Shown here piece by piece: positions 1 through 37,514 of a DNA stretch of 64,000 bases. Location of the stretch: the NCBI GenBank assembly GCA_023139105.1, contig JAGLOF010000091.1, forward strand, positions 10,391 to 74,390. The letters run 5' to 3'. This stretch comes from a bacterium. Its GTDB lineage: Bacteria > Zhuqueibacterota > QNDG01 > JAGLOF01. The notes below the pieces were generated by a model. It did no database searches, was not told where the DNA came from, and saw nothing but the letters and a program-made list of their open reading frames with translations. The translations under genes were made by a program, and so were the position numbers. Each line of letters begins with the position of its first letter. Position 1 is the stretch's first letter.

Positions 1-950
1 TGCCATTGTTCAGCCAGGGGTATGACGATTCTTTTGAGATGAAGAATAAGGTTAAGGTTGAATTACAGTACGCAGATTATGGCGAATATGAGTATCCTGA
101 AGCTATTTTATTTCGATTTGGACTTCAGGAATACTATCAGCTTAGGCCATTTCTGGCCAATTTTCCTGAACGCCGTTCATTAATCAAGTTTACAAGAACT
201 GTAGGGGCAAAAACAGCTATAGGCGTCAAATATCAATTTTCAGATATCAGGGAAGATGTCAATAGTCATTTAACCGAAGCAAAGGTCACCACATCAATCA
301 GACCGGGATTGACAGCCTTGGTTGGAGTGCAGATGATCTATGACGAAAGAGGTTTTAAGGCATGGCAACCTGGCGTTGGTATGCGCTGGGATCTTAGTGC
401 TGCCACTACATTACAGGCGGATGCCCAATATTATACACGTGGCGAAGATGCTGTTGATATTGGAGGTAGCTTGGGTTCATTGAACCTTCGCTGCAAACTG
501 CGTCAAGTATTGACGGTTTCTACTGCCATGATGTTGGAGTATCTTTTTTATGATGCTGACGGTGAAGCAATTGAATTTACTTCGCATACCGTCTCCCTCT
601 GGTTAAGCAGGTTTTTTCATACTCAGACCGCGGTTCATTTGAATTTACGTTTCTATGATAACAGTCTTGGTATTCAGTCTATGGCACCCTCTATTGAAAT
701 TGGTCAGTATCTTAACTGGGCAACTATTTTACGGTTTAAATATCGTTACTACAATAATAAGAGTAATAATATAAGTTTGGGTGAGAGTGATATTGTTGTG
801 CCTGACGGCTTGAAGACTCATGCTGCCAGCCTTCAGCTTAATCGGGAACTTAATTCAGAGCTTCTTGGTTATTTGAAGTACAGGTATTATAAGAGTAATC
901 AGGGCGTGGTCATGAATACATATTTATTAGGTTTTGTATATTCGTTTTAG
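1..950 (+). CDS. outer-membrane beta-barrel-like protein (5' end cut by window edge)
   Basis: The frame of ORF 6..950 stays open to base 3, so the gene likely begins upstream of the window. It has a Y/R/N/G-rich alternating pattern and the C-terminus ...LLGFVYSF (terminal Phe) typical of OMP barrels. No specific family recognised. Confidence 0.45.
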   Translation, partial: PLFSQGYDDSFEMKNKVKVELQYADYGEYEYPEAILFRFGLQEYYQLRPFLANFPERRSLIKFTRTVGAKTAIGVKYQFSDIREDVNSHLTEAKVTTSIRPGLTALVGVQMIYDERGFKAWQPGVGMRWDLSAATTLQADAQYYTRGEDAVDIGGSLGSLNLRCKLRQVLTVSTAMMLEYLFYDADGEAIEFTSHTVSLWLSRFFHTQTAVHLNLRFYDNSLGIQSMAPSIEIGQYLNWATILRFKYRYYNNKSNNISLGESDIVVPDGLKTHAASLQLNRELNSELLGYLKYRYYKSNQGVVMNTYLLGFVYSF

Positions 951-958: not shown

Positions 959-1750
959 ATGAGACAGCAATTAAAATTATTTTTTTCTATTACGGGAGCG
1001 GCATTTCTCATTTGGCATTGTGGCAAAACACCTGCAAATATGCCTGAGATAATACCAGGATCAATACGTATTTCCGCACAGGATGAAATTCGTATTGATT
1101 CGATCAATGTTATTCTGGATGATGAACCGCTTGAACAATATGCCAATCCGGTGCTTATGGAGGATATTACTCCGGGGACACATGCACTCTCTGTGGCAAC
1201 CCTATCAGGTGTGGAACAATTCTATCCTCAATTGTTGGTTGCATCTGATCAGGTTACTGAAGTAGCACCATTACTTGATGTCGGACCGGCGAGAAGACCA
1301 TTTGAGGGATATACTGCTCCTGATTTTTCAGCGTTAACTCTTGATAGTACCTATATTGGTTCTTCCGATTATACTGGTAATGTTACTCTATTATTTTTTA
1401 TATTGGATACTTGAAGCTCTTGTCTTGAGACGGAGTTACCGTCTGTAGAAGAATTACTTTGGAGCGTGTTTAAAAGTAATATTCATGCAAGAGTAATGTG
1501 TATTGTATATGGGCAAAGGGAATCAGTGTTTCGGGATTTTGTCAATACTCATCATTTAACATTTCCTATTGTTTATGTTGATAATTTTTCATTATTTGGA
1601 ATGTATAATGTTGGCTATGAGTGGGGGCGTATCCCGCCATCATGGTTTGTCATAGATAAGGAGGGTGTGATTCAACTGCGCCGGGACAATGCGTATGACA
1701 GTGTTACAATTATGTATTCAAAAATGAATGAACTTTTAAACTCCAATTAA
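959..1750 (+). CDS. exported PEGA-like + TlpA/ResA-like thioredoxin-fold protein with selenocysteine at TGA 1412-1414 (U-S-S-C)
   Basis: ORFs 959..1414 and 1466..1750 share a frame (1466-959=507) and the 17 codons between them contain no stop. Read-through gives ...YTAPDFSALTLDS..GNVTLLFFILDT-U-SSC-LETELP...RIPPSWFVIDKEG. This is the TlpA layout (APxF, beta-strand, CxxC, ExP, cis-Pro, ID.xG) with TGA at the first Cys. Hairpin 1428-1444 follows. The N-terminus is hydrophobic and signal-like. Confidence 0.8.
1428..1444 (+). promoter_or_regulatory. putative bacterial SECIS stem-loop
   Basis: AGACGG-AGTTA-CCGTCT is a 6-bp stem starting 16 nt after the U of TGA 1412. The apical loop contains GU. 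It shares the core GGAGTT-N-CC with the hairpins at 1984 and 4174. Confidence 0.65.
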
Positions 1751-1765
1751 TGAGCAGAGGATTAT

Positions 1766-2290
1766 ATGATATGTCGAACAAGAAAGATTCTAACCATTGG
1801 AATCTTATTTCTCGGAGTATTTTTTACGATTGTGCCTGTCAGTGCTCAATTGAAAGTGGGTGATACTGCCCCTGCTTTTAAATTACATAATGTAAACACT
1901 AAGAAATTCGTTACCTTGAGTGATTTCATTGACAAGAAGATCGTCATAGTCCATTTCTGGAAATCAAAGTGACGAGAATGTCTTGAGGAGTTTCCTCATT
2001 TGTTTGATATTTATGATGCTTACAAGGAACATGTAGAGATTTTGTCAATTAATCCAATCAATCCACGTGGACGTATTCTCTCGGATTTAAGGCGTTTTGA
2101 TGCCCCTTTCCCTGTGCTTGAAGGACGCGGCAGCCGTATTATACGCGATTACAAAATCCGCTCCCTTCCCGCCATATATATTATTGACAAGGCGGGAGAG
2201 ATAGTAGCGGGCGGCAAGTATATGTCATTTGAAAAGTTGGAAACTACTATAAAATCAATGATCGCTGTGAAAACGGCTGAAATTGAGTAG
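1766..2290 (+). CDS. secreted TlpA/ResA-like thiol:disulfide oxidoreductase with selenocysteine at TGA 1970-1972 (U-R-E-C)
   Basis: ORFs 1766..1972 and 2000..2290 are in frame (234 nt apart) with 9 sense codons between them. Read-through gives a signal peptide ...VPVSAQ, then GDTAPAFKL..FVTLSDFIDKKIVIVHFWKSK-U-REC-LEEFPHL...SLPAIYIIDKAGE. This is a canonical TlpA pattern with TGA in place of the first Cys of WCxxC. Confidence 0.85.
1984..1998 (+). promoter_or_regulatory. putative bacterial SECIS stem-loop
   Basis: TGAGGA-GTT-TCCTCA is a 6-bp perfect stem with a GUU loop, starting 14 nt after the U of TGA 1970. Confidence 0.7.
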
Positions 2291-2331
2291 AAGTAGTTCT
2301 GGTTTATTCCTTTTTAAGTGATATTTTACTC

Positions 2332-2361
2332 TTGCAAAATACATAGCTGTCGGCGTATATT
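2332..2361 (+). promoter_or_regulatory. possible sigma70-like promoter for tRNA-Sec
   Basis: TTGCAA (2332-2337), an 18-nt spacer, then TATATT (2356-2361), 14 nt upstream of the tRNA 5' end. Pattern match only. Confidence 0.3.
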
Positions 2362-2375
2362 ATGTCTGCAGTTTT

Positions 2376-2475
2376 GGGGGCGAATGAGCACCTGGTGGGC
2401 TCCGCGGACTTCAAATCCGTATGTGCCGTGCTGAGAAGTTCGGTAGGTGGGTTCGATTCCCACACGCCCTCGCCA
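2376..2475 (+). tRNA. selC: tRNA-Sec (anticodon TCA)
   Basis: A 100-nt sequence, GGGGGCGA...ACGCCCTC-G-CCA, with these elements: an acceptor helix; an anticodon stem GCGGA/TCCGT with loop CTTCAAA (TCA at 2411-2413); a long variable arm (TGCCG...CGGTA with an internal GCT-GAGA-AGT); a T arm GTGGG-TTCGATT-CCCAC; and an encoded CCA. The length and long extra arm are typical of bacterial selC. Confidence 0.9.
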
Positions 2476-2623
2476 AATAATTTCTGTTTAAATATATCTA
2501 TGCATAGATGTTCTCCCTCATCATCCAATTGCAGGAGCTTGTATGTTTCCGAAGCGATGGTTTATGCATCTTGTCATTATTCTGTTCCAACAATCATGTA
2601 ATAAATTTCCAACGGGTATTGCC

Positions 2624-4498
2624 ATGAAAAATTTACTAACATTCATGGCAATTCTTCTATTCTCTATCGGATGTAGGCGTAATGCTCTACCACCGGATGT
2701 GGAATTCAAAAAAGGCCGGAAATATGAATCAGCCGGTTATATTGATTCTGCATTAACTTGTTATAGAAATGCTATTGTTTCCGATGGAATGTATATGCCC
2801 GCACAACGTGCTGCGCACTACTGGCTAAGAAAGAAACCTTGTAATAAAGATTCACTAATAGATGTTTGCATTCGTAATATCCGGGAATACCCCGATGAAG
2901 TTGGCTGGCATATACTGCATGCACGTATGTACCCATATACAGACAGTCTGCGCCAAACACTATTGAACCTGTGTAAACGTTTTCCTAAGGAAAGTGAAAT
3001 CTGGCTTTATCTTGGTAATATTTGTATGAAAATGGAATTTAAGCATGACGCACTATCCGCATATGATAAAGCCCTTGCTCTGGATTCGACAAATGCCCGA
3101 GTCCTGTGTGCCATTGGACATTACTATTATCAATCAGATAAGTTGGAATTAGCATTAAAGTCTGCTCTTTCAGCGCTTCGATATGACAATTTAATAAGAT
3201 CAAATCTTGGTAGTATATATCTTAAGATGTATTTTAATGCCATAGATAAAGAAGAGGCTGCTGATAGTATTGAGTGTAAGATGAAGGGCCTTCTTAAAAT
3301 TTATCCTGATAATACCTATCTTCTGAACAGTGCTCATTTGTTGGCCTGTCGCTTAAAAAAGAAACATTGGTCTGCTATTCTTTCAAAACGTCTTGAGGAG
3401 AAAGCACCAAGAGGGGGCTGGGCAGAGACTCAGGCCATTTATCCGCAGGGAGTATCGGGACGGGAGCATTACTATAAAATGTGTCAGTATCTGGGGGATT
3501 ACCCTTTTGGACGCCACAGGGGTGTTGCTTTTACATGCGCTTTTGTCTATGCTGCCAAACGCAGGTCTGTAAGCGATGAGGAAGCATGCTGTATTGCCAG
3601 AGATTGGATTCGGGAATATCCGGCATCGGGCCATGTGTATAAGCAGACAATATGGGATTGCTTTGTTAAGCATCGCAAAAACATAGCCTATGCTTTTTAT
3701 CTTATAAGATGCGGTATAAGTGCTGCTCCTGTAGGGGAACGCGGCATAGCATATTTTCAGTTGGCAAAATTGCATTATCATCAATGCCGTAATGATTCGG
3801 TTTCTTATTATTTGAATCTGGCAAAAAAATTAATGCCTGCAAATGCCGATTTTTTATATTGGCAGGGAAAGTGTCAACTGGCTTTGGGACATACTAATGA
3901 GGCCTTGATACTATTATCAAAGGCAGCACATTTGGAGGAGACTACTGCCATAAGAAGAACTCTTGAGCGGGCCTATGAAAAGAAAAATGGAAGCCTTAAA
4001 GGCCTTGAAGAATATCTTAAATCCAATATTGCTGTAAATTCGTTAAAAGCATGTGGTCCTTTACTCCCTCAAATGGACGTTAGCCTTGTAAATGGTGAGA
4101 ATATAAACCTGGCAGATTATGGAGGCCGAGTATTGCTTCTGAATTTTTGGAAACCTGGCTGAGGTGCTTGCCGTACGGAGTTTCCGTATATGCAGGATTT
4201 AATTGAACAGTATCAAGATACAGAATTTTCCATGCTTTCAATATGTGTTCAGTCACACAGAAAAGTAGCCCAAAGATATGTTGATTCTGCTATGATAGAA
4301 GACAAAGCATTATTCCCAGTGGGGTATGATGGTGCCGACATTTTTAAGACCATGCATGGTAATTCTCTGCCTATGACATTTATTATCGATAGAAATCGAC
4401 AGGTTCGGTTTAGACATAGGGAATTTAAGATAGGTATGGAGAAGCAGTTTGCCCGGGAGATTGAAATATTGTTGGATGAGCCGGATGAGTCTTTGTAA
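2624..4498 (+). CDS. TPR-repeat lipoprotein with C-terminal TlpA-like thioredoxin domain, selenocysteine at TGA 4160-4162 (U-G-A-C)
   Basis: ORFs 2543..4162 and 4190..4498 are in frame (1647 nt apart). Read-through gives ...YGGRVLLLNFWKPG-U-GAC-RTEFPYMQDL...NSLPMTFIIDRNRQV. The likely start is ATG 2624 (MKNLLTFMAILLFSIGC, lipobox-like). The central region is TPR-like (repeated A/Y/L patterns). Hairpin 4174-4188 follows the TGA. Confidence 0.8.
4174..4188 (+). promoter_or_regulatory. putative bacterial SECIS stem-loop
   Basis: TACGGA-GTT-TCCGTA is a 6-bp perfect stem with a GUU loop, starting 14 nt after the U of TGA 4160. The geometry matches the 1984 hairpin. Confidence 0.7.
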
Positions 4499-4577
4499 TC
4501 TGCTGATTTATAATTTAGAACCTTTTTTATTTGGATTCATCCCCCTGGCTTGGTAAATTCAGAGAACTAAATGGAGG

Positions 4578-5910: not shown

Positions 5911-6756
5911 ATGAAGATAATAAATACAGTAAAAGCAATGCAACAGGAGGCGGATTCTTTACGCATGGCTGGGAAACGTATTGGATTAGTTCCGACAATG
6001 GGTGCGCTGCATGATGGACATTTAAGTCTCCTAACAATGGCCAAAGAAAAGTCGGATATTGTTGTAGTCTCTATTTTTGTCAATCCGACACAATTTGGCC
6101 CTGATGAAGATCTTGATGCATATCCCAGGGATTTTGATAGAGATGAGAGACTTTTAATCCGGGCCGGAGCAGATATTATTTATTATCCCGCTGTTGATGA
6201 GATGTACCCCACTTCGTATCATACTTATGTTACTGTAGATACATTGACAGAAAAGCTCTGTGGCGCATCAAGACCAGGGCATTTTAGAGGTGTTACAACA
6301 ATTGTTACAAAGCTGTTTAATGCTGTGAAACCACATTGCGCCGTCTTTGGTGAGAAAGATTTTCAACAAGTCGCTGTTATTCGGAGAATGGCAGTAGATT
6401 TGAATATGGATGTTGAAATAATTACTGCGCCAATTGTAAGAGAGAAAGACAGTCTGGCCATGAGTTCGCGCAATAATTATCTTTCCATAGAAGAAAGACA
6501 GGATGCGTTGATACTTTATAACTCTCTTGAAAAAGCACGCAAATTAATCCGTGAAGGAATGCGGGATGTTGATAAAATCTCCAAGGCAATTGAGGCCTTG
6601 ATTTTGGAGAAAGATAATGTGTCTATTGATTATATCAATCTGATTCATCCTGGTACACTGGAGGATATTCAGCATATTGAGGATTCTGTACAGATTGTTC
6701 TGGCTGTTTTTGTAGGCAAGATTCGTTTAATTGATAATCTCAGAGTTGATCTCTGA
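5911..6756 (+). CDS. panC: pantoate--beta-alanine ligase
   Basis: VPTMGALHDGHLSL and FVNPTQFGP motifs, 281 aa. Ends with a genuine TGA stop at 6754-6756. Confidence 0.95.
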   Translation: MKIINTVKAMQQEADSLRMAGKRIGLVPTMGALHDGHLSLLTMAKEKSDIVVVSIFVNPTQFGPDEDLDAYPRDFDRDERLLIRAGADIIYYPAVDEMYPTSYHTYVTVDTLTEKLCGASRPGHFRGVTTIVTKLFNAVKPHCAVFGEKDFQQVAVIRRMAVDLNMDVEIITAPIVREKDSLAMSSRNNYLSIEERQDALILYNSLEKARKLIREGMRDVDKISKAIEALILEKDNVSIDYINLIHPGTLEDIQHIEDSVQIVLAVFVGKIRLIDNLRVDL

Positions 6757-15240: not shown

Positions 15241-16194
15241 TTATGCATGCATTTTAATTAATAATTCCAAAGGATCAGGGTATAGATAGTGTTGATCCAA
15301 TAAAAAAACGTCATTATACCTTTGAGCATATTTGTTTAAATGTTTTATCGGGATAATCAGGGGGATTTCGTATTGTGTATATGAATTAATGATGTCAGTA
15401 AGTTCCTGTTTTTCAGCATGTTGAAGCTTTGATCTATATGATTGTTGTATATGGTTGAGTACATAGACGTTTTTTTTAACAGTCGAAGGTAATTGCAGGG
15501 TCTTCATCATGATATTAATATATTTTAGTGTGGTGTAATTAAAATTTGTGGAATGAGAATTGACTAAAAGTGAATCAAGTTCATCTGTTTTCTCAAGATC
15601 ATGGCTCATGATGAGTAATCTATGCTGCATGTTAAACCGGATCAAGCCTTGCATATTGCAATTATTATCTTTAAAATCCAGCCATCTTTTATACACAAAA
15701 ACTCTCTCAATGAAGTTGATACGTGATTTCGTATCTTCAAAGCCAAGTTCATCTGTTATTGGCATAAATGGATTTGCTTTTATTAGAGCTTTTGCAAAGA
15801 GACCGGTGCCAATATGACCAAGGCTCTTACCTTGTGCATTGTGGATCTCAATATTTGATACTCCACAGCTTGGAGATTTGGATTTTAATATGAATCCGCA
15901 GAGATGCCGACCAGGCATTGTGTCTAAATAACAGGAAATCCAGTCATTCATTTGAGAAGAATAATTTATTTCTGTGTCAATTGTAATTAATTTGGGATTT
16001 TCAATGGGGGTAAATAGCAGCATTGGAGTACGCGGAGTAGGAAGACCACACTCTACTTCAGGACATACAGGGACATAGTCAATAAATTTTCCCAGTACAT
16101 CCATGAGGTACGTATGGTATTTATGTCCGCCCTTGTAACGTGTTCTTGCACCTGTTAAACATTTTGAGATACCCAGTGAAATCGATTGATTCAT
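15241..16194 (-). CDS. DUF523 + DUF1722 domain protein
   Basis: GISKCLTG..RYKGGH and PVCPEVECGLPTPR motifs (DUF523) followed by a helical DUF1722-like C-terminal half. ATG 16194 is preferred because it avoids overlap with the upstream L,D-transpeptidase. Confidence 0.7.
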   Translation of the reverse strand: MNQSISLGISKCLTGARTRYKGGHKYHTYLMDVLGKFIDYVPVCPEVECGLPTPRTPMLLFTPIENPKLITIDTEINYSSQMNDWISCYLDTMPGRHLCGFILKSKSPSCGVSNIEIHNAQGKSLGHIGTGLFAKALIKANPFMPITDELGFEDTKSRINFIERVFVYKRWLDFKDNNCNMQGLIRFNMQHRLLIMSHDLEKTDELDSLLVNSHSTNFNYTTLKYINIMMKTLQLPSTVKKNVYVLNHIQQSYRSKLQHAEKQELTDIINSYTQYEIPLIIPIKHLNKYAQRYNDVFLLDQHYLYPDPLELLIKMHA

Positions 16195-16216
16195 TGCAGT
16201 TCCAATTGATGTCTTT

Positions 16217-16822
16217 TTATTTAATGATAATGACAAGTGTATTCTCATGAACTTCAGGATACATTTGTATGACATCAAAATTTTTCATTCTGATGCAACC
16301 GTGCGAGGCAGGTCTCCCGATAAGGCCTTCTTCATTGGTTCCGTGAATATAGATATATCGTTGATATGAATCTACGTCACTGCCTATGTTTAAGCCGGCT
16401 TCCAGGCCTTTAAGCCATAGGATTCTGCTGGTTATAAGATCATCTTTAACATCAGTGGAGTCAGTATAGATACGGGCAATCTCTCCAGTGTTTCTTCGTG
16501 ATTTGAAAATTGTTCCGGACAGGGCATTGGCACCGTATTTGGCCGCAATACCATGAACTCCCAAAGGTGTTCTGTTGCTGCCTGCTGCTGATCCGGTACC
16601 GATGTATGATGTAGATATGGCGTATGTCTGAATGATGGTCTCATTCTGTATCAAATATAGTCTCTGATCGGTGATTGAGACCACAATACAAGATTGATCA
16701 TCCTGATATTCAAACTGCGAATATAGTTTCTGCACGGCTTGCTCTATGGCAGGTGGCAGAGATAGAGATTGTGCACATGCAAGAGTAAGTGTGCTCAATG
16801 ATAAGGCAATTATTTTTATCAT
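16217..16822 (-). CDS. L,D-transpeptidase (YkuD family), secreted
   Basis: Signal peptide MIKIIALSLSTLTLACA. Catalytic motif IHGTNEEGLIGRPASHGCIRM. Confidence 0.85.
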   Translation of the reverse strand: MIKIIALSLSTLTLACAQSLSLPPAIEQAVQKLYSQFEYQDDQSCIVVSITDQRLYLIQNETIIQTYAISTSYIGTGSAAGSNRTPLGVHGIAAKYGANALSGTIFKSRRNTGEIARIYTDSTDVKDDLITSRILWLKGLEAGLNIGSDVDSYQRYIYIHGTNEEGLIGRPASHGCIRMKNFDVIQMYPEVHENTLVIIIK

Positions 16823-17041: not shown

Positions 17042-18310
17042 TTAAAGCAAAACACCGGCTATACATGCTGTCATCCATGAGGCCAGGGCACCGCCAAACA
17101 TGGCCTTTAAACCCAGTTTAGCCAATTCATGGCGCCGCTCAGGAACTATTGATCCAATGCCACCAATTTGAATTGCAATAGAACTGAAATTGGCAAAGCC
17201 ACAGAGTGCATATGTAGCAATCACATATGAACGGGGTGTTATTGTGTCTTTTAAAGCTGCCAGATCGATATATGCAACAAATTCATTTAATGAGAGTTTA
17301 GTGCCAAGCAGATGGCCGATTTCAAATAAATCTTTAAAATCAACGCCCATTACGAAAGCCAGAGGACTAAAGGCGTAACCTAATATGTCTTTGAGGCTTA
17401 GATGAACAAGGCCGAGAATGGCATTAATCATGGCTATGAGTGCAATGAAGGCAAGAAGCATGGCACCTACATTGGCAGCAAGTTTTAATCCTGCAGCAGC
17501 ACCTGAAGCGGCTGCATCAATTACATTGGATGATTCTTTTTTAAGATTAACCTCTACTTTGCCAGCTGTTGCTGCTACCTGGGTTTCAGGATACATGATT
17601 TTTGCTATTACAAGAGCGGCAGGTGCAGACATGACACTGGCAGCCAGGAGATGTCCCGGATCAATTCCAAACCTTACATATGCAGCCATGACACCGCCGG
17701 CAACTGTAGCAAATCCCCCGGTCATTATAGCCATAAGCTCTGATCTTGTCATTTTAGGCAGGAAGGGTGCAACTACAAAGGGCGCTTCTGTCTGGCCGAC
17801 AAAGATATTGGAGGCTGCGGAAAGAGCTTCTGCACCGCTTACTCCCATGAAGCGTGTCATTACCCATGCTAATCCTTTTACTAATTTTTGCATGACACCC
17901 AGATGATATAGTACGCCCATCAGTGAGGCAAAGAAAATAATTGTAGGCAACACATGAAAAGCAAAAATGGGTCCAATTTCTGTAAGAGCTCCCGTAGAAC
18001 TGTCGGTAAGCAGGAAAGGGCCACCCTTACCCATAGTTTCGGCAATACCGTCAACACCCAGATAGAGCTTTCCAAAGAGAAATTCTGCACCATGGTCAGT
18101 AAATGATAATAGTTTTGTAACCGCTATCCTGGCACCTGCAAAAATATTTTTACCAATACTGGATTTGAGAATAATCAGTGCAAATAGGAATTGCAGGCTG
18201 ATTCCAAAACCGATTGTTCGTTTATTTATTTTTTTCCGGTTATTGGATAATAAAAAAGCTAAACCCATGAGGGCAAATACGCCAAAGAAGCTGATCAGTC
18301 TCAATAACAT
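17042..18310 (-). CDS. nupC: NupC/NupG-family (CNT) nucleoside transporter
   Basis: A multi-TM protein with a typical NupC N-terminus (LSNNRKKINKR) and C-terminal nucleoside-transporter blocks (GFANFSSIAIQIGG). ATG 18310 is preferred (10 nt after the tdk stop). Confidence 0.85.
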   Translation of the reverse strand: MLLRLISFFGVFALMGLAFLLSNNRKKINKRTIGFGISLQFLFALIILKSSIGKNIFAGARIAVTKLLSFTDHGAEFLFGKLYLGVDGIAETMGKGGPFLLTDSSTGALTEIGPIFAFHVLPTIIFFASLMGVLYHLGVMQKLVKGLAWVMTRFMGVSGAEALSAASNIFVGQTEAPFVVAPFLPKMTRSELMAIMTGGFATVAGGVMAAYVRFGIDPGHLLAASVMSAPAALVIAKIMYPETQVAATAGKVEVNLKKESSNVIDAAASGAAAGLKLAANVGAMLLAFIALIAMINAILGLVHLSLKDILGYAFSPLAFVMGVDFKDLFEIGHLLGTKLSLNEFVAYIDLAALKDTITPRSYVIATYALCGFANFSSIAIQIGGIGSIVPERRHELAKLGLKAMFGGALASWMTACIAGVLL

Positions 18311-18320
18311 AGTGATACTC

Positions 18321-18890
18321 CTATTGTTCCTGGGGTATGGTATGATGTTTCCGGCAGCGGGCTTCATATACACCCTGGCCGCCAATAAGTACTCGTTCCG
18401 ATGAATGTGTCAACCTTTGCGTTCTACTTGCGGGTCGGCCGCATTGAACACAGATGGCAAGTGTTTTTGTAATATATTCCGCCTTTGCAAGAATTTGCGG
18501 TATGGGTTCAAAAGGATCATTTTTAAAATCCATGTCCAACCCTGCAATAATAACACGCTTGCCGTCATCTGCCAGTTTTTCAATTACAGGAAGCAATGGC
18601 ATGCCAAAAAATTGGGCCTCATCAATTCCAATAACAACGGCATCTTTCGCTAAATCAAGAATATCGTTGGGATCTGTAAGTGCCACAGATTTTAGTCTTT
18701 GTTCTGAATGAGAGACAATAAAGCTCTCCTCATATCTGTCGTCAATGGCTGGTTTGATAATCAATACTTCCTGGTGGGCAATTAGTGCACGTCTTAGCCG
18801 TCTGATTAGTTCTTCTGATTTTCCGCTGTACATACAGCCGCAAATTGCTTCTATCCATCCGCCTTCTGACGGATGCATGGATTCCATCAA
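18321..18890 (-). CDS. tdk: thymidine kinase
   Basis: P-loop GCMYSGKSEELIRR, the DEAQFF motif, and a C-terminal zinc ribbon (CxxC...C..H pattern). Confidence 0.9.
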   Translation of the reverse strand: MMESMHPSEGGWIEAICGCMYSGKSEELIRRLRRALIAHQEVLIIKPAIDDRYEESFIVSHSEQRLKSVALTDPNDILDLAKDAVVIGIDEAQFFGMPLLPVIEKLADDGKRVIIAGLDMDFKNDPFEPIPQILAKAEYITKTLAICVQCGRPASRTQRLTHSSERVLIGGQGVYEARCRKHHTIPQEQ

Positions 18891-27866: not shown

Positions 27867-30800
27867 ATGAAATGCGGATGGTTTTATCGGTTAAAATATT
27901 TAATAGCAGTATGTTTTTTGTTAGTACCAGTTATACTTTCGGCACAGCAAATATTTTCAAACGGTTTTGAATCCGGCACTTTCAGCCCTGAGTGGACAGA
28001 AGGCAGTGCTGGTGTAAAGACTATTATCAATACCGATTCATACACCGGCCAGTACTGTGTGAGTATGGAAAACTATTCAGGCACTAACTGCATATACACC
28101 AGCACTGCTCTATCAGTTACTGCCGGAAATACTTATACTATCAAAGTATGGTATAAATGTGCAGCAGACAGGCAAGCACGAGTTAATTTTTATGATAATT
28201 TAAACTATCGCAGCCATAGTAGTGCTTTCTTTAGCGGTACTGGCACGTGGACGCAGTTGGAGCATTCTTTTGTTGCTGAAACAGACTGCCAGCAGGTGAA
28301 AATTTTTCTTTATGGTCATTACGGCAGTGGGACAACTGCTGTGTTGTATGATGAAATTGAGATTTATGAAAATGATAACAGCACGCCCAGTTTGACGGTC
28401 ACTGATCCCAACGGGGGCGAAGCCTGGACAGCCGGGACAATCCAGACAATATCCTGGGTCAATGAGAATTTTACTGATACAGTGGCACTGGAATATACCA
28501 TTGATGGTGGTCAGTATTGGAATACCATTGTCAGTGGCTCCACCAATGATGGCACCCAGCATTGGCTTGTTCCCGATTCTGCGTCGTCCAACTGCCTGGT
28601 GCGAATTTATGATTCAGCAGATCAATCACCTGCTGATACCAGTGACGCTGTTTTCAGTATTGCTGCTCAACCGGTTTTGGTAGAGATCTTTGCTGATGGA
28701 TTTGAGAGCGGTGCTTTCGGCCCGGTCTGGACAGCGGGCAGTGGTGGTGTAAAGAGTGTCATCAGTACAGATTTTCATGCTGGACAGTACTGTGCCAGTA
28801 TGGATGCTCATACAGCAACCAGCTACATCCATTGTTCTACGCCACTGACTGTGACTCCTGGTAAAACTTACATCATCAGAGGATGGTATAAGTGTAGTGC
28901 CGATCGCCAGGCCCGGGTGAACCTATATGATAACCTGAACTATCGAAGCCACAACAGCCTGATGCTAGATGGCACCGGGGACTGGGAACCGCTGGAACAT
29001 TCATTTATAGCAGAGAATGACTGCCAGCAAGTAGAGGTTTTCCTTTATGGCCACAATGGTACAGGTAGCACACCCATTTTCTATGATGATATCCAAGTCC
29101 TGGAAGATGCCAGTACCATGCCCACCCTGACTGTAGCTATGCCCAATGGCGGTGAGGAGTGGACTGTAAACACCAGCATGAATATTGCCTGGTCCAGTGT
29201 AAATTTTACTGACAATGTGACGCTGGAGTATTCCATTGGTGGTGGCAGTTATTGGAATACCATTGTTAGCAACACCACCAATGATGACAACCATGATTGG
29301 ACTGTACCTGATTCGGTAACTACCAATTGCCTGGTGCGTATCTATGACACTGCAGATCAAAGTCCCTGTGATACCAGCAATGGCTCCTTCAGCATAGTGG
29401 CACAATCAGATTCAATACAGATTTTTTCCAATGGATTTGAAACAGGTACCTTTAGCCCGATCTGGACTGAAGGCAGCAACGGTACCAAGCTTGTGATAAA
29501 TACAGATTATCACACAGGTCAATACTGTGTGAGTATTGATCAATACAGTGGTACCAACTGCGTCTATACCTCTACGCAGCTTGACGTCACTGCGGGCCGG
29601 ACCTATACAGTCAAGGCATGGTATAAGTGTGATACTGGCCGTGATGCCAGGGTCAACTTTTATGACAATTTGAATTACAGAAGCCATTCCAGTGCATACT
29701 TCAATGGCACGGGCGCATGGACTCAGTTGGAACATTCATTTGTTGCCGAGTCTGATTGTCAGCAAGTTGAGTTTTTTCTTTATGGTCATTACGGCACCGG
29801 TACAACACCGGTGTTGTATGATGATGTGGAAATTTATGAAGTGTGGGAAGAAACCGATACAACAGCCTTGGTGCTCTATGCCTATGAACCCTTTGATAGT
29901 CTGAGCACCATTGATGAATTCGTTCGTATTCTGGGTCAAGTCAACAAGCCAGACGTTCCTGTGACGGTTAATGGCACAGCCATGACTGTTGACAGTACAG
30001 GACGATTCCAAGCCCAATTATCGCTTTCTCTGGGAAGCAACACCTTTGTCTTTAATGCCAACAATGGAGAGGCCACCATCAGCAGAGTGGTTTACAGAGA
30101 AGCCGCCGATCTGCCTCCTGATCCTGAAGATGTTGCACCACCGGTTGATAATACAGTTACTACAACAGTGACTAATTCAACCCGATTCCTCTATACGGGC
30201 ATTAATCCTATACAGACAGGCGTTGATACTTCGCAGATGGACCCTGTCAGGGCAGCTGTTGTGCGCGGTAAAGTAGTTACTGTTACCGGAGACCCCCTTC
30301 ATGGTGCCATTATGACCATCAAAGATTATCCTGAGTTTGGGCAGACCAAATCCAGAGAGGACGGCTGGTTTGATATGGCTGTGAATGGTGGTGACGATCT
30401 GACGGTGCATTATTCCCGGCAGGGGTATTTAGATGTACAACGCCGCTTCCATGTGGACTGGCAGGATTGGGCCGTTATGGATAGCGTTGCCATGATTCAA
30501 CTTGATACCCGAGTGACGGTGGTTGATTTTAGTGATACCATTCAGGTTGCCCGGGGCAATGTCGTGACAGATGATGATGGTGCGCGCCAGGCAACTATGA
30601 TTTTTAAGCAGGGTACGCAGGCGGAAATGGTGATGCCAGATGGCAGCAGGCAGGCTTTGGATGAATTGCACATCCGTGCCACTGAATATACGGTGGGCGA
30701 TATTGGTGTCGCGGCCATGCCCGCTATGCTGCCGCCCGAAAGCGGATACACCTACTGTGTTGAATTGACATGCGATGAAGCACTGAAAGCCGGTGCTACA

Positions 30801-33800
30801 GGGGTCGTATTTGACCAGCCTGTGCCGTTTTATGTGGAGAATTTTCTTGATTTTCCCGTGGGGTGCCGGGTGCCTGTGGGCTATTATGATAAAGAGAAGA
30901 AACAGTGGATCGCATTACCTGATGGATGGAATCTTGAAATCGTCAGTGTGAGTAACGGGGTTGCAAATATTGATGTTACCGGAGATCATCTCGCAGATAC
31001 TCCTGATACGTTGGCGATAGTCGGAATCGATTTGAATGAACGAAAATCGATTGCCGATCTGTATGATCCGGGGCAGTCTTTGTGGCGGGTGGAATTGAAT
31101 CATTTCTCCCCCATCGATTTGAACTTGCCCATTACTCGGTATGAGGAGAGAGTACCCAGTATAATTTTAGATGAGGCAAAATTGATCAGTGATGAAGACG
31201 AGTGTGAAGGGAGAGGTTCGATTATTAAGATTCAGAAACAAGTTCTTAAAGAGGTGGTGCCGGTGTCCGGTACAGGAATGGCGCTCAATTACATGAGCAA
31301 TAGAACACCGGATTACGCTTCGGCTCTCAATATCAAGCTGATTTCCGGTGAAGTTCCGCCTGAAGTGCTGAAGATCATGTTGAAGATTTCAGTGGCTGGC
31401 CGAGTCTTTGAGTATCAGTACCAGCCGCTGGCCAACCTGACACATGTGTTCATTTGGGACCGAAAAGACGCCTATGGACGCCTTATTCGGGGGGAGATGC
31501 CGGTCAACATCTCCATAGGATATGAGCAGTTCCAGCGCTATCTCACACGGAGGAATTTTGATCTGGGCACTTCGTTCGGTAATTTGGTCGTGCTAAGTTC
31601 TACTCTGGATGAGGGATCAAGCCAGATGGCATACACAATGATTGATACGACGCGTCAGCCGGTCATATCATACCGGAATTATGTGAGATATATCGGCGGT
31701 TATCAGCCTCCGGTACAGGATTTTGGCGGATGGACTCTGACTCCTCATCACTATTACAATCCCATCAGTAAAGTGGTACATTCGGGAAGTGGAGATAATA
31801 TTAATTCTTCGTTCAGTAAGAACAATTCTATCAATACGGAAATCGATCTCGATGATATTCAGTTGGTTGGCGGTTTATCTGGCTTGCCCAGAAATATCTG
31901 TCTTGGTCCCTATGGCAATTGGATCGCTCTGGTTGAATCAAGGCTGTATTTGTTATATAATAATTTCGCTACTTCGATCCATGATCAAATGGTTGGGGAT
32001 ATGTGTGCCGGGGCAGATGGGACGATCTTTGCGGTTGAGACCAGTAACCATCGAGTGATCAAGATTGACTCGGTAGGGACTGTTACGGCCATCGCCGGGA
32101 CTGGGGTGAGTGGTTATTCAGGTGATGGCGGGGCTGCGGTGAATAGTCAATTGAGCTGTCCTACAAACATTGCTGTCAACAAAGATGGAGCTATTTATAT
32201 CTCTGATTTTGGCAATCACTGTATACGCCGCATTGGTACAGAGGGCAACATTGAAACCATTGCAGGAACAGGGGAAATTGGATTTAGCGGTGATAGTGGT
32301 TATGCTCTGGATGCCAAAATTTTCGCTGGAGATCTGGCTGTGGGACCAGATGGCAGTCTGTTTATCGCCGATCCCATAACTTGTCGAATTCGAAGGATAA
32401 CTCCTGATGGCATCATTGATACCTATGCGGGCAATGGCGAGGCAGGATATGGCGCGAATGGCAGCATGGCTGCATCTGCGGAACTGTTCTTTCCGCTGTT
32501 TATTAATGTTGACGAGCGGGGCAATCTTTATATCTCAGATTTTGGAAACCATTGCATACGAAGAGTCGATGTCAATGGCGTGCTTAGCACAGTTGCCGGT
32601 TGCGATGGAGTATTCGATCCCAGACTGCTGTATGAAGAGTTGCTGGGTTTTCCCATACCGGCGGGAATGGACCTGTCGCTGACAGATATCTATTCTTATA
32701 CTGATCCGATTTCTGATATACTTCCCTTTTTGTTGTTTGAGCTTTATGAATTGGACATGAATTATTGCCCCGGCTTCAGGGGGGAGGGTATGAACCCTTT
32801 AAGAGCTCATTTATGTGCCGGAGGATTGGTCGATGCACCTGATGGTAGTCTTTACTTTGCCGATCCCCTGAATAGGCGCATCCGTCAAATCCAGTCGGCC
32901 TACCCTGTATTCAGCAATTCCGATTACAATGTTTCATCCCCTGATGGTGGTGAACTGTATGTCTTTGATCAGATGGGAACACACCTAAAGACTCTGGATG
33001 GGCTGACCGGCTCTGTAAAATATACATTCAACTATACGGACGGTCTGCTGAGTGAAATACTCGATCAGGACAGCCTGGTCACCCGGATTGAGCGCACTGA
33101 GTCCGGAGATGTGAGAATGATTTTGTCTCCCTTCGGCCATCGTACGATCTGCTCCCTCGATTCCAGTGGCTACCTGGTTTCGGTAACCAATCCCGGGATA
33201 GAGACTGTGCGTTTTGAATATACCAATGGGATGTTGATGACTGAAGAGACAGACCCCTGGGGAGGAGTCCATTGCTTCACTTACAATAATGAAGGAAAAC
33301 TGATCCGCGATGAAGACCCTGCCGGAGGATGGAAATCAATCACCAAAACCCGAACTCAATCAGGATATTCCATCGAGTATAAAACGGCCGAGGGTAGTAT
33401 CAAATCCTATGCGATTGAGGTGCAGGATGATCAAACGATTCGTATGACCAATGCCAATGCCACTGGAATAGCCACAGTGTCTCTGAAAAACCCCGATGGC
33501 TCGCAGTCGATCACTTATCCTGATGGTGTTAACATGTTCAAGTTGATGAAGCCCGATCCCCGCTACGGCATGCAGGCACCGTTGATTGATACATTGAGGA
33601 TCACCCTGCCTTCCGGGCTCCAGTCTGTCATGAGCCAGTCGCGAACCATTGACGTGATGTCCGGACTGGCCATCACCCAGATGACGGATACGTCAATTGT
33701 TAACAACAAGATCTCTGTCACCCAGTTTGACGGGAACCAGCATTTCTGGCGCACAATCTCTCCTGAAGGCAGACAGGCCTACGCATTCATCGATGAAAAG

Positions 33801-36068: not shown

Positions 36069-36093
36069 TTTATATTGATTTATGGAGAAATAA

Positions 36094-36456: not shown

Positions 36457-36503
36457 GCTGTACAGAGTGTGCAGACAAGCCTATAGCTTCCTAAGGATTC
36501 TGC

Positions 36504-36709
36504 ACATCTTGGCTTCTAATGGTCAAACACCGGGTATGCCCTCATGCTGCCCGGTGTTCTTTAAAAAATAATCCATTGCCTCTTGTCATATATGGCAATT
36601 GACCTAAAACTAATTAATAATAAAATAAACAGCATATCTAAGATGTCGGCTACACTCCCAACGGTACTCAGGTTTCTTATTTGACGGCCCAAACCGGCGC
36701 ATCGGCACG
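36504..36709 (+). repeat. type-1 cassette junction, copy A (copy B at 38136-38340)
   Basis: About 200 bp are conserved between 36504-36709 and 38136-38340. The block includes the hairpin AACACCGGG-N15-CCCGGTGTT (36526-36558 / 38157-38189) and an RHS stub (GYTPNGTQV.Y). Confidence 0.8.
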
Positions 36710-37498: not shown

Positions 37499-37514
37499 AT
37501 ACAGGAGAAGGTAA

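What the first reader, a model, noticed from the sequence alone, without database searches (positions are those of the whole stretch)
959..4498. Three adjacent exported TlpA-like oxidoreductase genes each recoded with selenocysteine (UxxC)
Seen directly: three consecutive genes are each split by a single in-frame TGA, at 1412, 1970 and 4160. In every case the upstream ORF ends right after the hydrophobic strand that precedes the thioredoxin active site. The downstream ORF continues in the same frame with x-x-C-x-x-E-[LF]-P, the cis-Pro and ID.xG. The TGA therefore occupies the nucleophilic first Cys of CxxC (U-S-S-C, U-R-E-C, U-G-A-C). All three proteins have signal-peptide or lipoprotein N-termini. 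TGA is a normal stop elsewhere in the window (panC 6754-6756), which argues against a reassigned code.

Sec-containing thioredoxin-fold proteins are known. A tandem trio of periplasm-directed ones with three different domain contexts (PEGA-like, stand-alone, TPR-fused) next to selC is unusual. It would be mis-annotated as six fragments by standard gene callers.
Basis: partly seen in the sequence, partly recalled or inferred. Interest (0 to 1): 0.85.

Follow-up and report, generated by a model that had tools for sequence, protein, structure and literature searches.

The report
Three exported selenocysteine thiol-disulfide oxidoreductase genes
Three neighbouring genes for exported thioredoxin-fold redox enzymes each use an in-frame UGA to insert selenocysteine at the active site; this kind of selenoprotein is already known, but here it sits in a conserved gene cluster joined to the selenocysteine machinery, which public annotation splits into fragments.

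Summary

- **The sites.** In-frame TGAs at 1412, 1970 and 4160 each replace the first Cys of a CxxC motif in a TlpA/ResA-like domain. The Pfam AhpC-TSA match runs across each TGA.
- **Machinery.** tRNA-Sec lies between genes 2 and 3. A Sec-containing selD lies about 1 kb upstream of the trio, just outside the window.
- **Recoding signal.** A hairpin with a GUU apical loop starts 10-13 nt after each UGA. Orthologues show compensatory base changes in it.
- **Conservation.** Divergent homologues in Ignavibacteriota, Bacteroidota, KSB1 and unclassified MAGs keep TGA at the same codon. This holds for 18 of 20 genuine genome matches for the gene 2/3 motif. It also holds for all 7 genome and 29 metagenome loci of the gene 1 family.
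- **Context.** The order outer-membrane β-barrel, gene 1, gene 2 recurs, often directly after selD and selC. One contig carries selA-selB-selD-selC-barrel-gene 1.

Sec-containing "Prx-like thiol:disulfide oxidoreductases" (UxxC) have been known since 2004-2006, so this is a new member of a known kind. No curated NCBIfam selenoprotein model covers these families. Their physiological substrate is unknown. selA and selB were not found within reach in this genome.

The parts
6..950 (+). 3' part of a gene for a 330-aa outer-membrane β-barrel protein with a weak DUF3570-like match. Its true start is 42 nt before the window. It is the conserved first gene of the module.
   Evidence: Pfam DUF3570 matches at 25.9 bits (cut-off 25), partially, over profile positions 282-340 of 427. 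Orthologues give weak OMP_b-brl and Porin_4 hits. The protein has a signal peptide and a C-terminal ...YSF. Orthologues (30-68% identity) sit directly upstream of gene 1 in L007, L008, L011, L016 and L017 and in 20 metagenome loci. None of the five aligned sequences has a [S/T]GA[S/T] flavinylation motif.
959..1750 (+). Gene 1: a lipoprotein with a β-rich N-terminal domain of unknown family and a TlpA-like domain. Its active site is T-U-S-S-C, with Sec encoded at 1412-1414.
   Evidence: Pfam AhpC-TSA, E = 4.7e-12, spans the TGA. Seven orthologues align full length with invariant CG (lipobox Cys), T-U-x-x-C, E-x-P and a cis-Pro PP. The family keeps TGA in 7 genome and 29 metagenome loci.
1428..1444 (+). 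SECIS-type hairpin of gene 1 (AGACGG-AGUUA-CCGUCU), starting 13 nt after the UGA.
   Evidence: Folded. The helix is 100% paired in 7 orthologues, with C-G to U-A and G-C to A-U double changes. Slid controls pair in 38-60% of cells.
1766..2290 (+). Gene 2: a stand-alone periplasmic TlpA/ResA-like oxidoreductase with a signal peptide (...VSA/QL). Its active site is U-R-E-C, with Sec encoded at 1970-1972.
   Evidence: Pfam AhpC-TSA, E = 2.4e-17. The best NCBIfam match is ResA (84 bits, below its cut-off). The best solved structure is ResA 4nmu, E = 8e-15, with U aligned to its first Cys.
1984..1998 (+). SECIS-type hairpin of gene 2 (UGAGGA-GUU-UCCUCA), starting 11 nt after the UGA.
   Evidence: In the family alignment of 21 sequences, 96.6% of cells are paired, 4 of 7 pairs show changes on both sides, and 0 of 500 shuffles reach the observed value.
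2376..2475 (+). selC, the tRNA-Sec gene (anticodon UCA), between genes 2 and 3.
   Evidence: ARAGORN and Rfam RF01852 at 61.5 bits against a gathering score of 47. tRNA-Sec is also found next to the module in L010, L033, L042, L045, L046, L055 and L056.
2624..4498 (+). Gene 3: a lipoprotein with a long TPR region fused to a C-terminal TlpA-like domain. Its active site is U-G-A-C, with Sec encoded at 4160-4162. An alternative upstream ATG is at 2543.
   Evidence: Pfam gives TPR_2 (E = 2.9e-14), AhpC-TSA (E = 4.7e-14) and Redoxin (E = 9e-14). A full-length homologue, L024b, aligns at 27% identity over 620 aa (E = 3e-78) with TGA at the same codon. L024a and L018 also carry it. In L033 a TPR lipoprotein follows selC in the same order.
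4173..4189 (+). SECIS-type hairpin of gene 3 (GUACGGA-GUU-UCCGUAU), starting 10 nt after the UGA.
   Evidence: It is in the same alignment and covariation count as gene 2. The A-U at pair 16-28 is a compensatory variant of the G-C seen in most family members.

Best explanation
The three genes are genuine selenoprotein genes.

**Recoding.** During translation, a hairpin 10-13 nt downstream of each UGA has an apical loop containing GUU, which overlaps the conserved E-[FL]-P codons. It recruits SelB carrying Sec-tRNA(Sec). The tRNA comes from the selC gene inside the cluster. Selenophosphate comes from the adjacent SelD, which is itself a selenoprotein. Sec is therefore inserted where ordinary TlpA/ResA proteins have the nucleophilic first Cys of CxxC.

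**Products.** The proteins are exported: two as lipoproteins and one through a cleavable signal peptide. They most likely act in the cell envelope as thiol:disulfide (selenylsulfide) reductases.

**Module.** They belong to a conserved module of outer-membrane β-barrel, lipoprotein T-U-x-x-C enzyme and periplasmic FWKxxUxxC enzyme, here with a third, TPR-fused copy. In many uncultured FCB-type bacteria this module sits directly beside the Sec-decoding genes.

**Shown.** UGA position, Cys alignment, conserved hairpin, conserved TGA in orthologues, selC and selD linkage, and the conserved gene order.

**Inferred.** Actual Sec insertion, export, the reductase (rather than peroxidase) chemistry, the electron donor and the substrate.
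For: - **Domain continuity.** The Pfam AhpC-TSA/Redoxin match continues across each TGA.
- **U aligns with Cys.** U aligns with the first Cys of CxxC in Cys homologues (Algivirga, a Chloroflexota MAG, WCPPC-type proteins) and in ResA 4nmu. The cis-Pro is present.
- **Machinery.** selC at 2376-2475. selD lies upstream at 335 bits to TIGR00476, with its own in-frame TGA at the catalytic ...GACAG-U-AGK... site and a hairpin after it.
- **Closest relatives of the gene 2 C-terminal half.** Among 1.84 billion representative proteins, 9 of the 11 best hits are fragments of about 77-110 aa that start just after the site. The two full-length hits carry 'W' there, which is TGA in the DNA.
- **Genome scan for FWKxx[U/C]xxCxxEFP.** 18 genuine matches have TGA, 2 have Cys and 2 are chance.
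- **Gene 1 family.** TGA in 7 genome and 29 metagenome loci.
- **Gene 3.** Full-length homologues carry TGA.
- **Hairpin covariation.**
- **Selection.** Against a relative at about 40-70% amino-acid identity, the stretch after each TGA evolves like coding sequence. For gene 2, differences by codon position are 24/10/49, with 72% amino-acid identity downstream against 58% upstream.
- **Assemblies.** Three assemblies agree at the TGAs they cover.
- **Ordinary stops.** TGA is a normal stop in 14 of 42 other ORFs.
- **Conserved order.** selD-selC-barrel-gene 1-...-gene 2 recurs, and L045 carries selA-selB-selD-selC-barrel-gene 1.
Against: - No selA or selB was found in the 64-kb window or the 9 kb upstream. 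The rest of the MAG could not be searched.
- Folded alone, the hairpins are not significantly more stable than shuffled sequence (z = -1.4, -0.3 and -1.8). Rfam gave no SECIS match at gathering threshold.
- Part of the covariation coincides with amino-acid changes and with clade structure, so the number of independent events is small.
- The DNA pattern used for the gene 1 family fixes hairpin-forming codons. It is therefore biased against finding Cys forms.
- There is no experimental evidence for selenium incorporation, export or activity.
- No CcdA/DsbD-type electron donor was found nearby.
Confidence: 0.9

Rival explanations
1. The TGAs are real stops. The six pieces are then separate genes, pseudogene remnants or assembly errors.
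For: Public gene callers annotate six fragments. The word-index protein search returned only those fragments.
Against: - TGA sits at the identical codon in dozens of divergent homologues, with conservation on both sides.
- The most conserved motif straddles the TGA, and no start codon immediately follows it.
- The Pfam domain is continuous across each TGA.
- Three assemblies agree.
Confidence: 0.02
2. UGA is decoded here as another amino acid (Trp, Gly or Cys), through a reassigned code or a suppressor tRNA, and not as Sec.
For: Two database homologues were translated with W at the site by a pipeline using an alternative code. The identity of the inserted residue was not measured.
Against: - TGA ends 14 of 42 other ORFs in the window.
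- The only tRNA in the window is a canonical tRNA-Sec inside the cluster.
- A Sec-type selD is adjacent, and selA and selB adjoin the same module in L045.
- A conserved hairpin follows every such UGA.
- The site is the redox-active Cys position. Trp or Gly there would inactivate the enzyme.
Confidence: 0.03
3. The Sec reading is correct, but the chemistry differs. The proteins are periplasmic thiol (selenol) peroxidases of the Prx or GPx type, not disulfide reductases.
For: The best Pfam family is AhpC-TSA. One remote hit for gene 1 is a BCP-type peroxiredoxin. Sec is a good peroxidatic residue, and anaerobes benefit from periplasmic peroxide defence (general knowledge).
Against: - The motif is U-x-x-C, not PxxxTxxC.
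- The cis-Pro typical of Trx/TlpA-type oxidoreductases is present.
- The best NCBIfam and PDB matches are ResA, TlpA, StoA and DsbE, not Tpx, BCP or AhpC.
Confidence: 0.2
4. The module is a variant of the flavin-based DsbD-ApbE-DUF3570-thioredoxin-like extracytosolic electron-transfer clusters. The barrel would be a flavinylated electron carrier.
For: DUF3570 genes are known to cluster with exported thioredoxin-like genes and DsbD (PMC8238504). The barrel here gives a weak DUF3570 match.
Against: - The match is partial (about 60 of 427 profile positions) and falls below the cut-off in the four orthologues tested.
- None of five barrel sequences has the [S/T]GA[S/T] flavinylation motif.
- No ApbE, DsbD or DUF4266 was seen among the window ORFs scanned or among the 25 most recurrent neighbour families.
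Confidence: 0.1

Closest known systems
'Prx-like thiol:disulfide oxidoreductase' and 'thiol:disulfide interchange protein' selenoprotein families (Kryukov and Gladyshev 2004; Zhang et al. 2006, PMC1794560; review PMC13188914)
   Same: They share the thioredoxin fold matched by PF00578, Sec at the first position of a UxxC motif, Cys-containing homologues, and a SECIS just downstream of the UGA.
   Different: The families here have their own motifs (FWKxxUxxCxxEFP; FFxxT-U-xxC-x-E-x-E-x-P). They carry export signals and extra domains (a β-rich N-terminal domain; TPR). They sit in a conserved cluster with an outer-membrane barrel, selD and selC. Direct orthology to the Geobacter-type reference proteins was not tested.
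ResA / TlpA / CcmG (DsbE) / StoA: Cys-containing extracytoplasmic thiol-disulfide reductases
   Same: These are the best NCBIfam and PDB matches. They share the same CxxC position, the cis-Pro and export to the envelope.
   Different: Sec replaces the nucleophilic Cys. Scores are far below the equivalog or subfamily cut-offs (for example 84 against 170 bits for ResA). No cytochrome c maturation, Sco/Cox or sporulation genes are adjacent.
Curated NCBIfam Sec-containing redoxin families: WAxxUGC (NF041054) and TUGYCR redoxin (NF053656)
   Same: They are Sec-containing members of the TlpA/redoxin superfamily. The TUGYCR family shares the T-U-x-x-C spacing with gene 1.
   Different: Scores are 26 bits (cut-off 300) and 17 bits (cut-off 100), and for gene 3 only. 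Genes 1 and 2 do not hit them at E <= 0.01. The three genes are not members.
DsbD-ApbE-DUF3570-thioredoxin-like-DUF4266 clusters (Méheust et al. 2021, PMC8238504)
   Same: A DUF3570-type exported protein is encoded next to exported thioredoxin-fold proteins. This suggests extracytosolic electron transfer.
   Different: Here there is no flavinylation motif and no ApbE, DsbD or DUF4266. The redox proteins are TlpA-like (PF00578/PF08534) rather than PF13899, and they contain Sec.
Selenoprotein genes flanking the Sec-decoding genes (fdhA next to selA-selB-selC; Zhang et al. 2006, PMC1794560) and multi-selenoprotein operons (SAO, Tso; Haft and Gwadz preprint 10.1101/2022.07.06.499078)
   Same: Client selenoprotein genes are physically linked to selC and selD (and to selA-selB in L045). 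Several selenoprotein genes lie in one cluster. Double-cubane reductase and activase genes sit beside selD, as those authors noted statistically.
   Different: The proteins, the cellular compartment (envelope) and the lineages (Ignavibacteriota, Bacteroidota, KSB1, unclassified FCB-type MAGs) all differ.

Membership tests
Bacterial selenoprotein gene (SelB/SECIS-dependent UGA recoding) | In-frame UGA at a position occupied by Cys in homologues | tested here: met
   U aligns with the first Cys of CxxC in five Cys homologues and in ResA. The Pfam match is continuous across the TGA.
Bacterial selenoprotein gene (SelB/SECIS-dependent UGA recoding) | Stem-loop immediately downstream of the UGA, with G/U in the apical loop, conserved as a structure | tested here: met
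   Hairpins start 10-13 nt after each UGA, with loop GUU or AGUUA. In the family alignments 96.6% and 100% of cells are paired, with compensatory changes, against 34-69% in slid controls. Single-sequence z-scores are weak, and no Rfam SECIS hit was found.
Bacterial selenoprotein gene (SelB/SECIS-dependent UGA recoding) | UGA retained in orthologues, with coding conservation on both sides | tested here: met
.
Bacterial selenoprotein gene (SelB/SECIS-dependent UGA recoding) | tRNA-Sec (selC) and selenophosphate synthetase (selD) in the genome | tested here: met
   selC is at 2376-2475. selD lies 179-1399 nt upstream of the window start on the same scaffold, at 335 bits to TIGR00476.
Bacterial selenoprotein gene (SelB/SECIS-dependent UGA recoding) | selA and selB in the same genome | not testable with these tools
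   Neither is in the window or the 9 kb upstream. The rest of MAG GCA_030635125.1 could not be searched. In the related contig L045, selA (460 bits) and selB (346 bits) directly precede selD-selC-barrel-gene 1.
Bacterial selenoprotein gene (SelB/SECIS-dependent UGA recoding) | Selenium actually incorporated into the protein | not testable with these tools
   This needs 75Se labelling or mass spectrometry.
TlpA/ResA-like extracytoplasmic thiol:disulfide oxidoreductase (thioredoxin fold; Pfam AhpC-TSA/Redoxin/Thioredoxin_8) | Domain match above the Pfam gathering score | tested here: met
   AhpC-TSA scores 46.4, 63.5 and 52.8 bits against a cut-off of 26. Redoxin is also above its cut-off in all three.
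TlpA/ResA-like extracytoplasmic thiol:disulfide oxidoreductase (thioredoxin fold; Pfam AhpC-TSA/Redoxin/Thioredoxin_8) | C/U-x-x-C active site at the start of helix 1, plus a cis-Pro loop | tested here: met
   The motifs are U-S-S-C, U-R-E-C and U-G-A-C. The conserved Pro in ...IPPSWFVID...SLPAIYIID and ...SLPMTFIID aligns with the Pro of Cys homologues. This rests on sequence alignment only; no usable 3-D model was obtained.
TlpA/ResA-like extracytoplasmic thiol:disulfide oxidoreductase (thioredoxin fold; Pfam AhpC-TSA/Redoxin/Thioredoxin_8) | Export signal (signal peptide or lipobox) | tested here: inconclusive
   This was read from the sequence, because no signal-peptide predictor was available.
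- Gene 1: hydrophobic N-terminus followed by an invariant Cys-Gly in 7 orthologues.
- Gene 2: ...VPVSA/QL.
- Gene 3...LLFSIGC.
TlpA/ResA-like extracytoplasmic thiol:disulfide oxidoreductase (thioredoxin fold; Pfam AhpC-TSA/Redoxin/Thioredoxin_8) | Membership of the named ResA, TlpA or DsbE NCBIfam models (score at or above the curated cut-off) | tested here: not met
   ResA NF002854 scores 40.7, 84 and 60.6 bits against 170. TlpA NF047696 scores 49.5 against 230. DsbE scores 35.3 against 123. The genes belong to the superfamily but are not these named orthologues.
Peroxiredoxin (Prx/BCP/Tpx) | PxxxTxxC peroxidatic motif, with a conserved Arg in place of the cis-Pro | tested here: not met
   The motif is UxxC with the cis-Pro retained. 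Only a weak BCP hit was found (E = 1.2e-6, 28.5 bits against 140).
Curated Sec-redoxin families (NF041054 WAxxUGC_long; NF053656 redoxin_TUGYCR) | Score at or above the NCBIfam cut-off | tested here: not met
   Gene 3 scores 26.4 against 300 and 17 against 100. Genes 1 and 2 have no hit.
Flavinylated DUF3570 (ApbE substrate; PMC8238504) | Full-length PF12094 match, [S/T]GA[S/T] flavinylation motifs and a cognate apbE | tested here: not met
   The match is partial: 25.9 bits in the window protein and 8.6-23.4 bits in orthologues. None of 5 sequences has the motif. No ApbE was found among the window ORFs scanned.
   No PEGA hit at E <= 0.1 for the window protein or at E <= 1 for six orthologues. 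The AlphaFold single-sequence model is unusable (pLDDT 32.5).

The most novel reading that the evidence does not exclude
The barrel, T-U-x-x-C lipoprotein and FWKxxUxxC periplasmic protein (with an optional TPR-fused copy) may form one previously undescribed envelope redox system built on selenocysteine.
- It would be hard-wired to the Sec-decoding genes (selD-selC, and selA-selB in L045) in Ignavibacteriota, Bacteroidota, KSB1 and related uncultured lineages.
- It would then be the client module that maintains, and perhaps travels with, the Sec trait in these bacteria, as fdhA does in others.
- It could be a Sec-based counterpart of the flavin-based DUF3570/thioredoxin-like extracytosolic electron-transfer clusters.
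Probability: 0.35. Interest if true: 0.62.

Novelty: new member of a known kind. Interest (0 to 1): 0.45.

Why it matters
**Annotation.** Three selenoprotein genes, plus selD, are split into fragments in every public copy of this contig. The same error recurs in dozens of MAGs and metagenome contigs. No NCBIfam selenoprotein model covers these two or three families, so the selenoproteomes of FCB-type uncultured bacteria are under-counted.

**Biology.**
- The data define a compact, conserved locus: selD-selC-barrel-Sec lipoprotein-(secreted β-propellers)-Sec periplasmic protein.
- The gene 1 family was found only with Sec, although the search pattern was biased toward that result.
- This gives a concrete test system for asking why envelope thiol-disulfide chemistry would need selenium, and what keeps the Sec trait alive in lineages where formate dehydrogenase may not be the anchor.

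It does not change the known principles of Sec decoding.

Tried and rejected
- **Word-index homologue searches.** Searches with read-through genes 2 and 1 returned only the window's own fragments plus one remote BCP protein. Full HMMER and DNA-pattern scans were needed instead.
- **The search for related loci.** Hand-built IUPAC patterns replaced them.
- **Upstream lookup.** A protein upstream of the window could not be looked up. Only about 5 kb more upstream was reached, via P0152. It held double-cubane/HGD-D genes, an activase and an ABC transporter, but no selA or selB.
- **Rfam.** At gathering threshold it found only tRNA-Sec and a group II intron fragment, and no SECIS family.
- **Single-sequence folding.** The three hairpins are not statistically distinguishable from shuffles.
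- **Promoter and terminator scan.** Uninformative: counts were near shuffle expectation, and one 'terminator' is the gene 2 SECIS itself.
- **AlphaFold.** The single-sequence model of the gene 1 N-terminal piece gave pLDDT 32.5 and is unusable, so no fold search was run.
- **Other in-frame TGAs in the window.** These were checked and rejected as Sec sites. They are an RHS toxin/immunity junction at 38281-39639, DUF4390 followed by the TPR-TlpA paralogue at 55025-57814, and the region upstream of a transporter at 17042-18583.
- **DUF523 protein.** The protein at 15241-16278 belongs to a family with Sec forms, but here it is the Cys form.
- **Taxonomy.** It could not be resolved. The nearest named helicase homologues are at about 55% identity, from Zixibacteria, GN15, Gemmatimonadota and Eisenbacteria MAGs.

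Full report
**1. The observation**

Translation of 959-1753, 1766-2293 and 2543-4501 in one frame each shows a single internal TGA, at 1412-1414, 1970-1972 and 4160-4162. Each upstream piece ends with the hydrophobic β-strand ...LLFFILDT...VIVHFWKSK or ...LLLNFWKPG. Each downstream piece continues SSCLETELP, RECLEEFP or GACRTEFP.

With the stop written as Cys, Pfam AhpC-TSA matches each protein almost end to end across the TGA. The values are E = 4.7e-12, 2.4e-17 and 4.7e-14, covering profile positions 2-122, 1-122 and 6-123 of 124. Redoxin is also above its gathering score in all three, and gene 3 adds TPR repeats.

ARAGORN and Rfam both find a tRNA-Sec at 2376-2475 on the same strand, between genes 2 and 3. 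TGA is an ordinary stop for 14 of 42 other long ORFs in the window.

The window is part of ENA scaffold ZHAN22-2_SAMN18200495_METAG-scaffold_116 (95.7 kb). The same DNA is in NCBI MAG GCA_030635125.1 and in Logan assemblies of SRR13892605. All gene calls there show the six fragments. The 63-nt contexts of the TGAs are identical in every assembly that covers them. The ENA and NCBI copies differ from each other at three positions elsewhere.

**2. Sec machinery next door**

Just upstream of the window (L001 2691-3911; L001 coordinate = window + 4090) lies selD. It scores 335 bits to TIGR00476. It has its own in-frame TGA at the catalytic ...GACAG-U-AGK... site (L001 2901-2903), followed by an 8-bp hairpin.

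No selA, selB, DsbD/CcdA or ApbE was found among the window's larger ORFs or in the further 5 kb reachable upstream.

**3. Homologues keep the TGA**

*Gene 2.* A full HMMER search with the post-UGA half of gene 2 against 1.84 billion representative proteins gave telling results.
- Nine of the eleven best hits were fragments of about 77-110 aa beginning just after the site.
- Two were full-length proteins with 'W' at the site.
- Their DNA (L004, L005) has TGA there, so a pipeline using another code had read through it.
- More distant hits carry WCPPC- or WCPTC-type motifs.

A degenerate DNA pattern for FWKxx[U/C]xxCxxEFP was scanned over one genome per GTDB species. It gave 22 matches: 18 genuine genes with TGA, 2 with Cys (Algivirga pacifica, a Chloroflexota MAG) and 2 chance hits. 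The TGA genes come from Ignavibacteriota, Bacteroidota, KSB1 and unclassified MAGs.

In a MAFFT alignment and against ResA structure 4nmu, U aligns with the first Cys of CxxC, and the cis-Pro is conserved.

*Gene 3.* It has a full-length TPR-TlpA homologue with TGA at the same codon (L024b, 27% identity over 620 aa, E = 3e-78). Two more are L024a and L018.

*Gene 1.* It looked orphan in the word-index search. A six-frame screen of the fetched loci for U-x-x-C then found six orthologues. They align over their whole length. Invariant features are the lipobox Cys-Gly, T-U-x-x-C-x-E-x-E-x-P and the PP cis-Pro region.

A metagenome scan with a pattern for this motif returned 36 loci. Of these, 29 are genuine family members, some redundant, and all carry TGA. 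The 7 others, including every TGT or TGC match, lack any ORF context. One caveat applies: that pattern fixes hairpin-forming codons, so it is biased against Cys forms.

*Selection.* Compared with the relative L033, the stretches after the TGA evolve like coding sequence. Differences by codon position are 53/38/73 for gene 1 and 24/10/49 for gene 2. Amino-acid identity downstream is equal to or higher than upstream.

**4. The recoding signal**

Each UGA is followed, after 10-13 nt, by a hairpin. The apical loop contains GUU and overlaps the conserved E-[FL]-P codons. Folded alone, the hairpins are not significantly more stable than shuffles (z = -1.4, -0.3 and -1.8). Rfam has no match.

Across 21 gene 2/3-type sequences the 7-bp helix is paired in 96.6% of cells.
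- Four pairs show changes on both sides, for example G-C and U-A at 10 sequences each at pair 15-29. The window's own genes contribute A-U variants at pairs 16-28 and 17-27.
- No shuffle out of 500 reaches the observed value.
- Slid controls pair in only 34-69% of cells.
- The three apical pairs were fixed by the search pattern. The four lower pairs were not.

The gene 1 family helix is 100% paired in 7 sequences. C-G changes to U-A through a synonymous Pro codon change that matches a Thr-to-Val change.

The spacing of about 11 nt and the G/U-containing apical loop fit what I recall of the E. coli minimal SECIS. That comparison is from my own knowledge and was not tested here.

**5. A conserved module tied to the Sec genes**

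In L008 (KSB1), L016 and the window, the order is outer-membrane barrel, gene 1, gene 2. In L007, L011, L012 and L017 (Ignavibacteriota, Bacteroidota and an unclassified MAG), two Sortilin/BNR β-propeller proteins are inserted between gene 1 and gene 2. One of them carries a T9SS sorting tail. Sortilin-Vps10 is the most recurrent neighbour family, found in 21 of 102 neighbouring ORFs.

The barrel is conserved at 30-68% identity. It has only a weak, partial DUF3570 match and no [S/T]GA[S/T] flavinylation motif.

In the metagenome loci the barrel directly precedes gene 1 in 20 cases where sequence is available. selD occurs in 6 of these loci and tRNA-Sec in 7 loci in all, counting the genome locus L010, always just upstream of or inside the module.

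L033 is a relative at about 70% identity. It reproduces the window exactly: selD, barrel, gene 1, gene 2, tRNA-Sec, TPR lipoprotein.

L045 carries selA (460 bits), selB (346 bits), selD, tRNA-Sec, barrel and gene 1 contiguously.

**6. Mechanism**

*Shown.* UGA at the nucleophilic Cys position, a conserved SECIS-type hairpin, selC and selD in cis, and conservation of TGA and of the gene order.

*Inferred.*
- SelB-dependent Sec insertion.
- Export: two lipoproteins and one protein with a cleavable signal peptide, read from the sequences.
- Action as envelope thiol:disulfide (selenylsulfide) reductases of the ResA/TlpA type. The UxxC motif, the cis-Pro and the best matches favour this over a peroxidase role.

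The electron donor (a CcdA/DsbD type is expected) and the substrates are unknown. The constant barrel partner and the frequent secreted β-propellers suggest a function at or beyond the outer membrane.

**7. Comparison with what is known**

Sec-containing 'Prx-like thiol:disulfide oxidoreductases' (PF00578, UxxC) and 'thiol:disulfide interchange proteins' are listed among bacterial selenoprotein families in 2006 (PMC1794560). They also appear in a 2026 review, together with a 'UGC-containing TlpA' family (PMC13188914).

The same review lists known selenoprotein operons: grdAB, prdBC, frh/hdr, Prx-SelW-like, Prx-like-AhpD-like, SAO and Tso. It does not mention this module or these lineages.

The three proteins fall far below the cut-offs of the curated NCBIfam Sec-redoxin models and of ResA, TlpA and DsbE.

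DUF3570 genes are known to cluster with thioredoxin-like genes, ApbE and DsbD (PMC8238504). The defining flavinylation features are absent here.

The verdict is therefore genuine selenoproteins of a known kind, belonging to uncurated families in a conserved context that I did not find described in the two full-text searches run or in the papers read.

**8. Verdict**

Confidence is about 0.9 that these are Sec-encoding genes and about 0.6 for the reductase role. Interest is moderate (0.45). A specialist would not be surprised by Sec in a TlpA-like protein. The obligate-looking Sec family, the recurrent selD-selC-barrel-gene 1-gene 2 locus and the systematic mis-annotation are still useful and testable.

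Noticed in passing
L001 2691-3911 (window -1399 to -179, outside the window): selD is itself a selenoprotein, with TGA at L001 2901-2903 (...YGACAG-U-AGKLKP...). It also carries a Cys-rich N-terminal extension of about 60 aa (CPCPADCSRHGDCKACIAYHKKRGDQTCC) with no Pfam match. Public gene calls truncate it to 332 aa.
   Followed up: partly
L028 1-7575 (scaffold region upstream of selD); L055 107-2201; L042 4757-5605: In the window's scaffold, three HGD-D/double-cubane-type genes, a BcrAD/BadFG-type activase, a NitT/TauT-type ABC transporter and a Phenol_MetA_deg outer-membrane channel precede selD. A double-cubane reductase (NF040772, 409 bits) plus an activase also precede selD in L055, and an activase alone in L042. 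This fits the statistical association between double-cubane proteins and SelD reported by Haft and Gwadz (10.1101/2022.07.06.499078).
   Followed up: partly
L045 3-6971 (metagenome contig Ga0209048_10002337): The complete Sec gene set is contiguous with the module: selA (460 bits), selB (346 bits), selD, tRNA-Sec, barrel, gene 1 homologue with TGA.
   Followed up: yes
window 55025-56995 (-): A second TPR + TlpA-like protein (AhpC-TSA E = 1.9e-7) has the active site replaced by W-S-K-T-S, with neither Cys nor Sec. It is probably a redox-inactive paralogue of gene 3 (20% identity in the C-terminal domain). It follows a DUF4390 gene in the same frame.
   Followed up: partly
L016 1064, 1814, 3325 (+) and L021 2105 (-): These loci hold another apparent Sec family. 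A short thioredoxin-like N-terminus ends ...T/S-U-G-G-C (one L016 copy has R-U-G-V-C), and most copies continue with about 440 aa of TPR. L016 has three tandem copies. The motif resembles, but was not tested against, the NCBIfam TUGYCR redoxin family.
   Followed up: no
window 27867-45723 (+): A large RHS/YD-repeat protein (2733 aa) is followed by several shorter YD-shell C-terminal cassettes and small ORFs, a toxin/immunity-like array. An Rfam group II intron D1-D4 hit (RF02001, 50.9 bits) lies at 41936-42116 inside the array.
   Followed up: no
L001 1186-1188 versus L002 1186-1188: The ENA assembly has an in-frame stop (LLKQ*PVTG) in the ABC-transporter ATPase, where the NCBI MAG has LLNQEPVTG. 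This is strain or assembly variation. It shows the assemblies are not copies of each other, which strengthens the agreement at the three TGAs.
   Followed up: yes
window 15241-16278 (-): A DUF523 (PF04463) + DUF1722 protein. The 2026 review lists a Sec-containing DUF523 form (SxSUG), but here the site is Cys (ISKCLTG).
   Followed up: yes
L007-L017 and L046, L055, L056 (between gene 1 and gene 2 homologues): Two Sortilin-Vps10/BNR β-propeller proteins (about 430 and 330 aa) are inserted in the module in several of the loci. Where scanned (L007, L011), the smaller one has a T9SS C-terminal sorting domain. Among the named MAGs these loci are Ignavibacteriota and Bacteroidota. They are absent from the window's version.
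   Followed up: partly
L046 9278-9877, L055 4172-4771, L056 217-897: A conserved ORF of about 200 aa ending ...MNLENGM(E/A/T)YQ(S/A)F lies between tRNA-Sec and the barrel in three metagenome loci. It has no NCBIfam match (only the L055 copy was scanned) and may be a second small outer-membrane protein.
   Followed up: no
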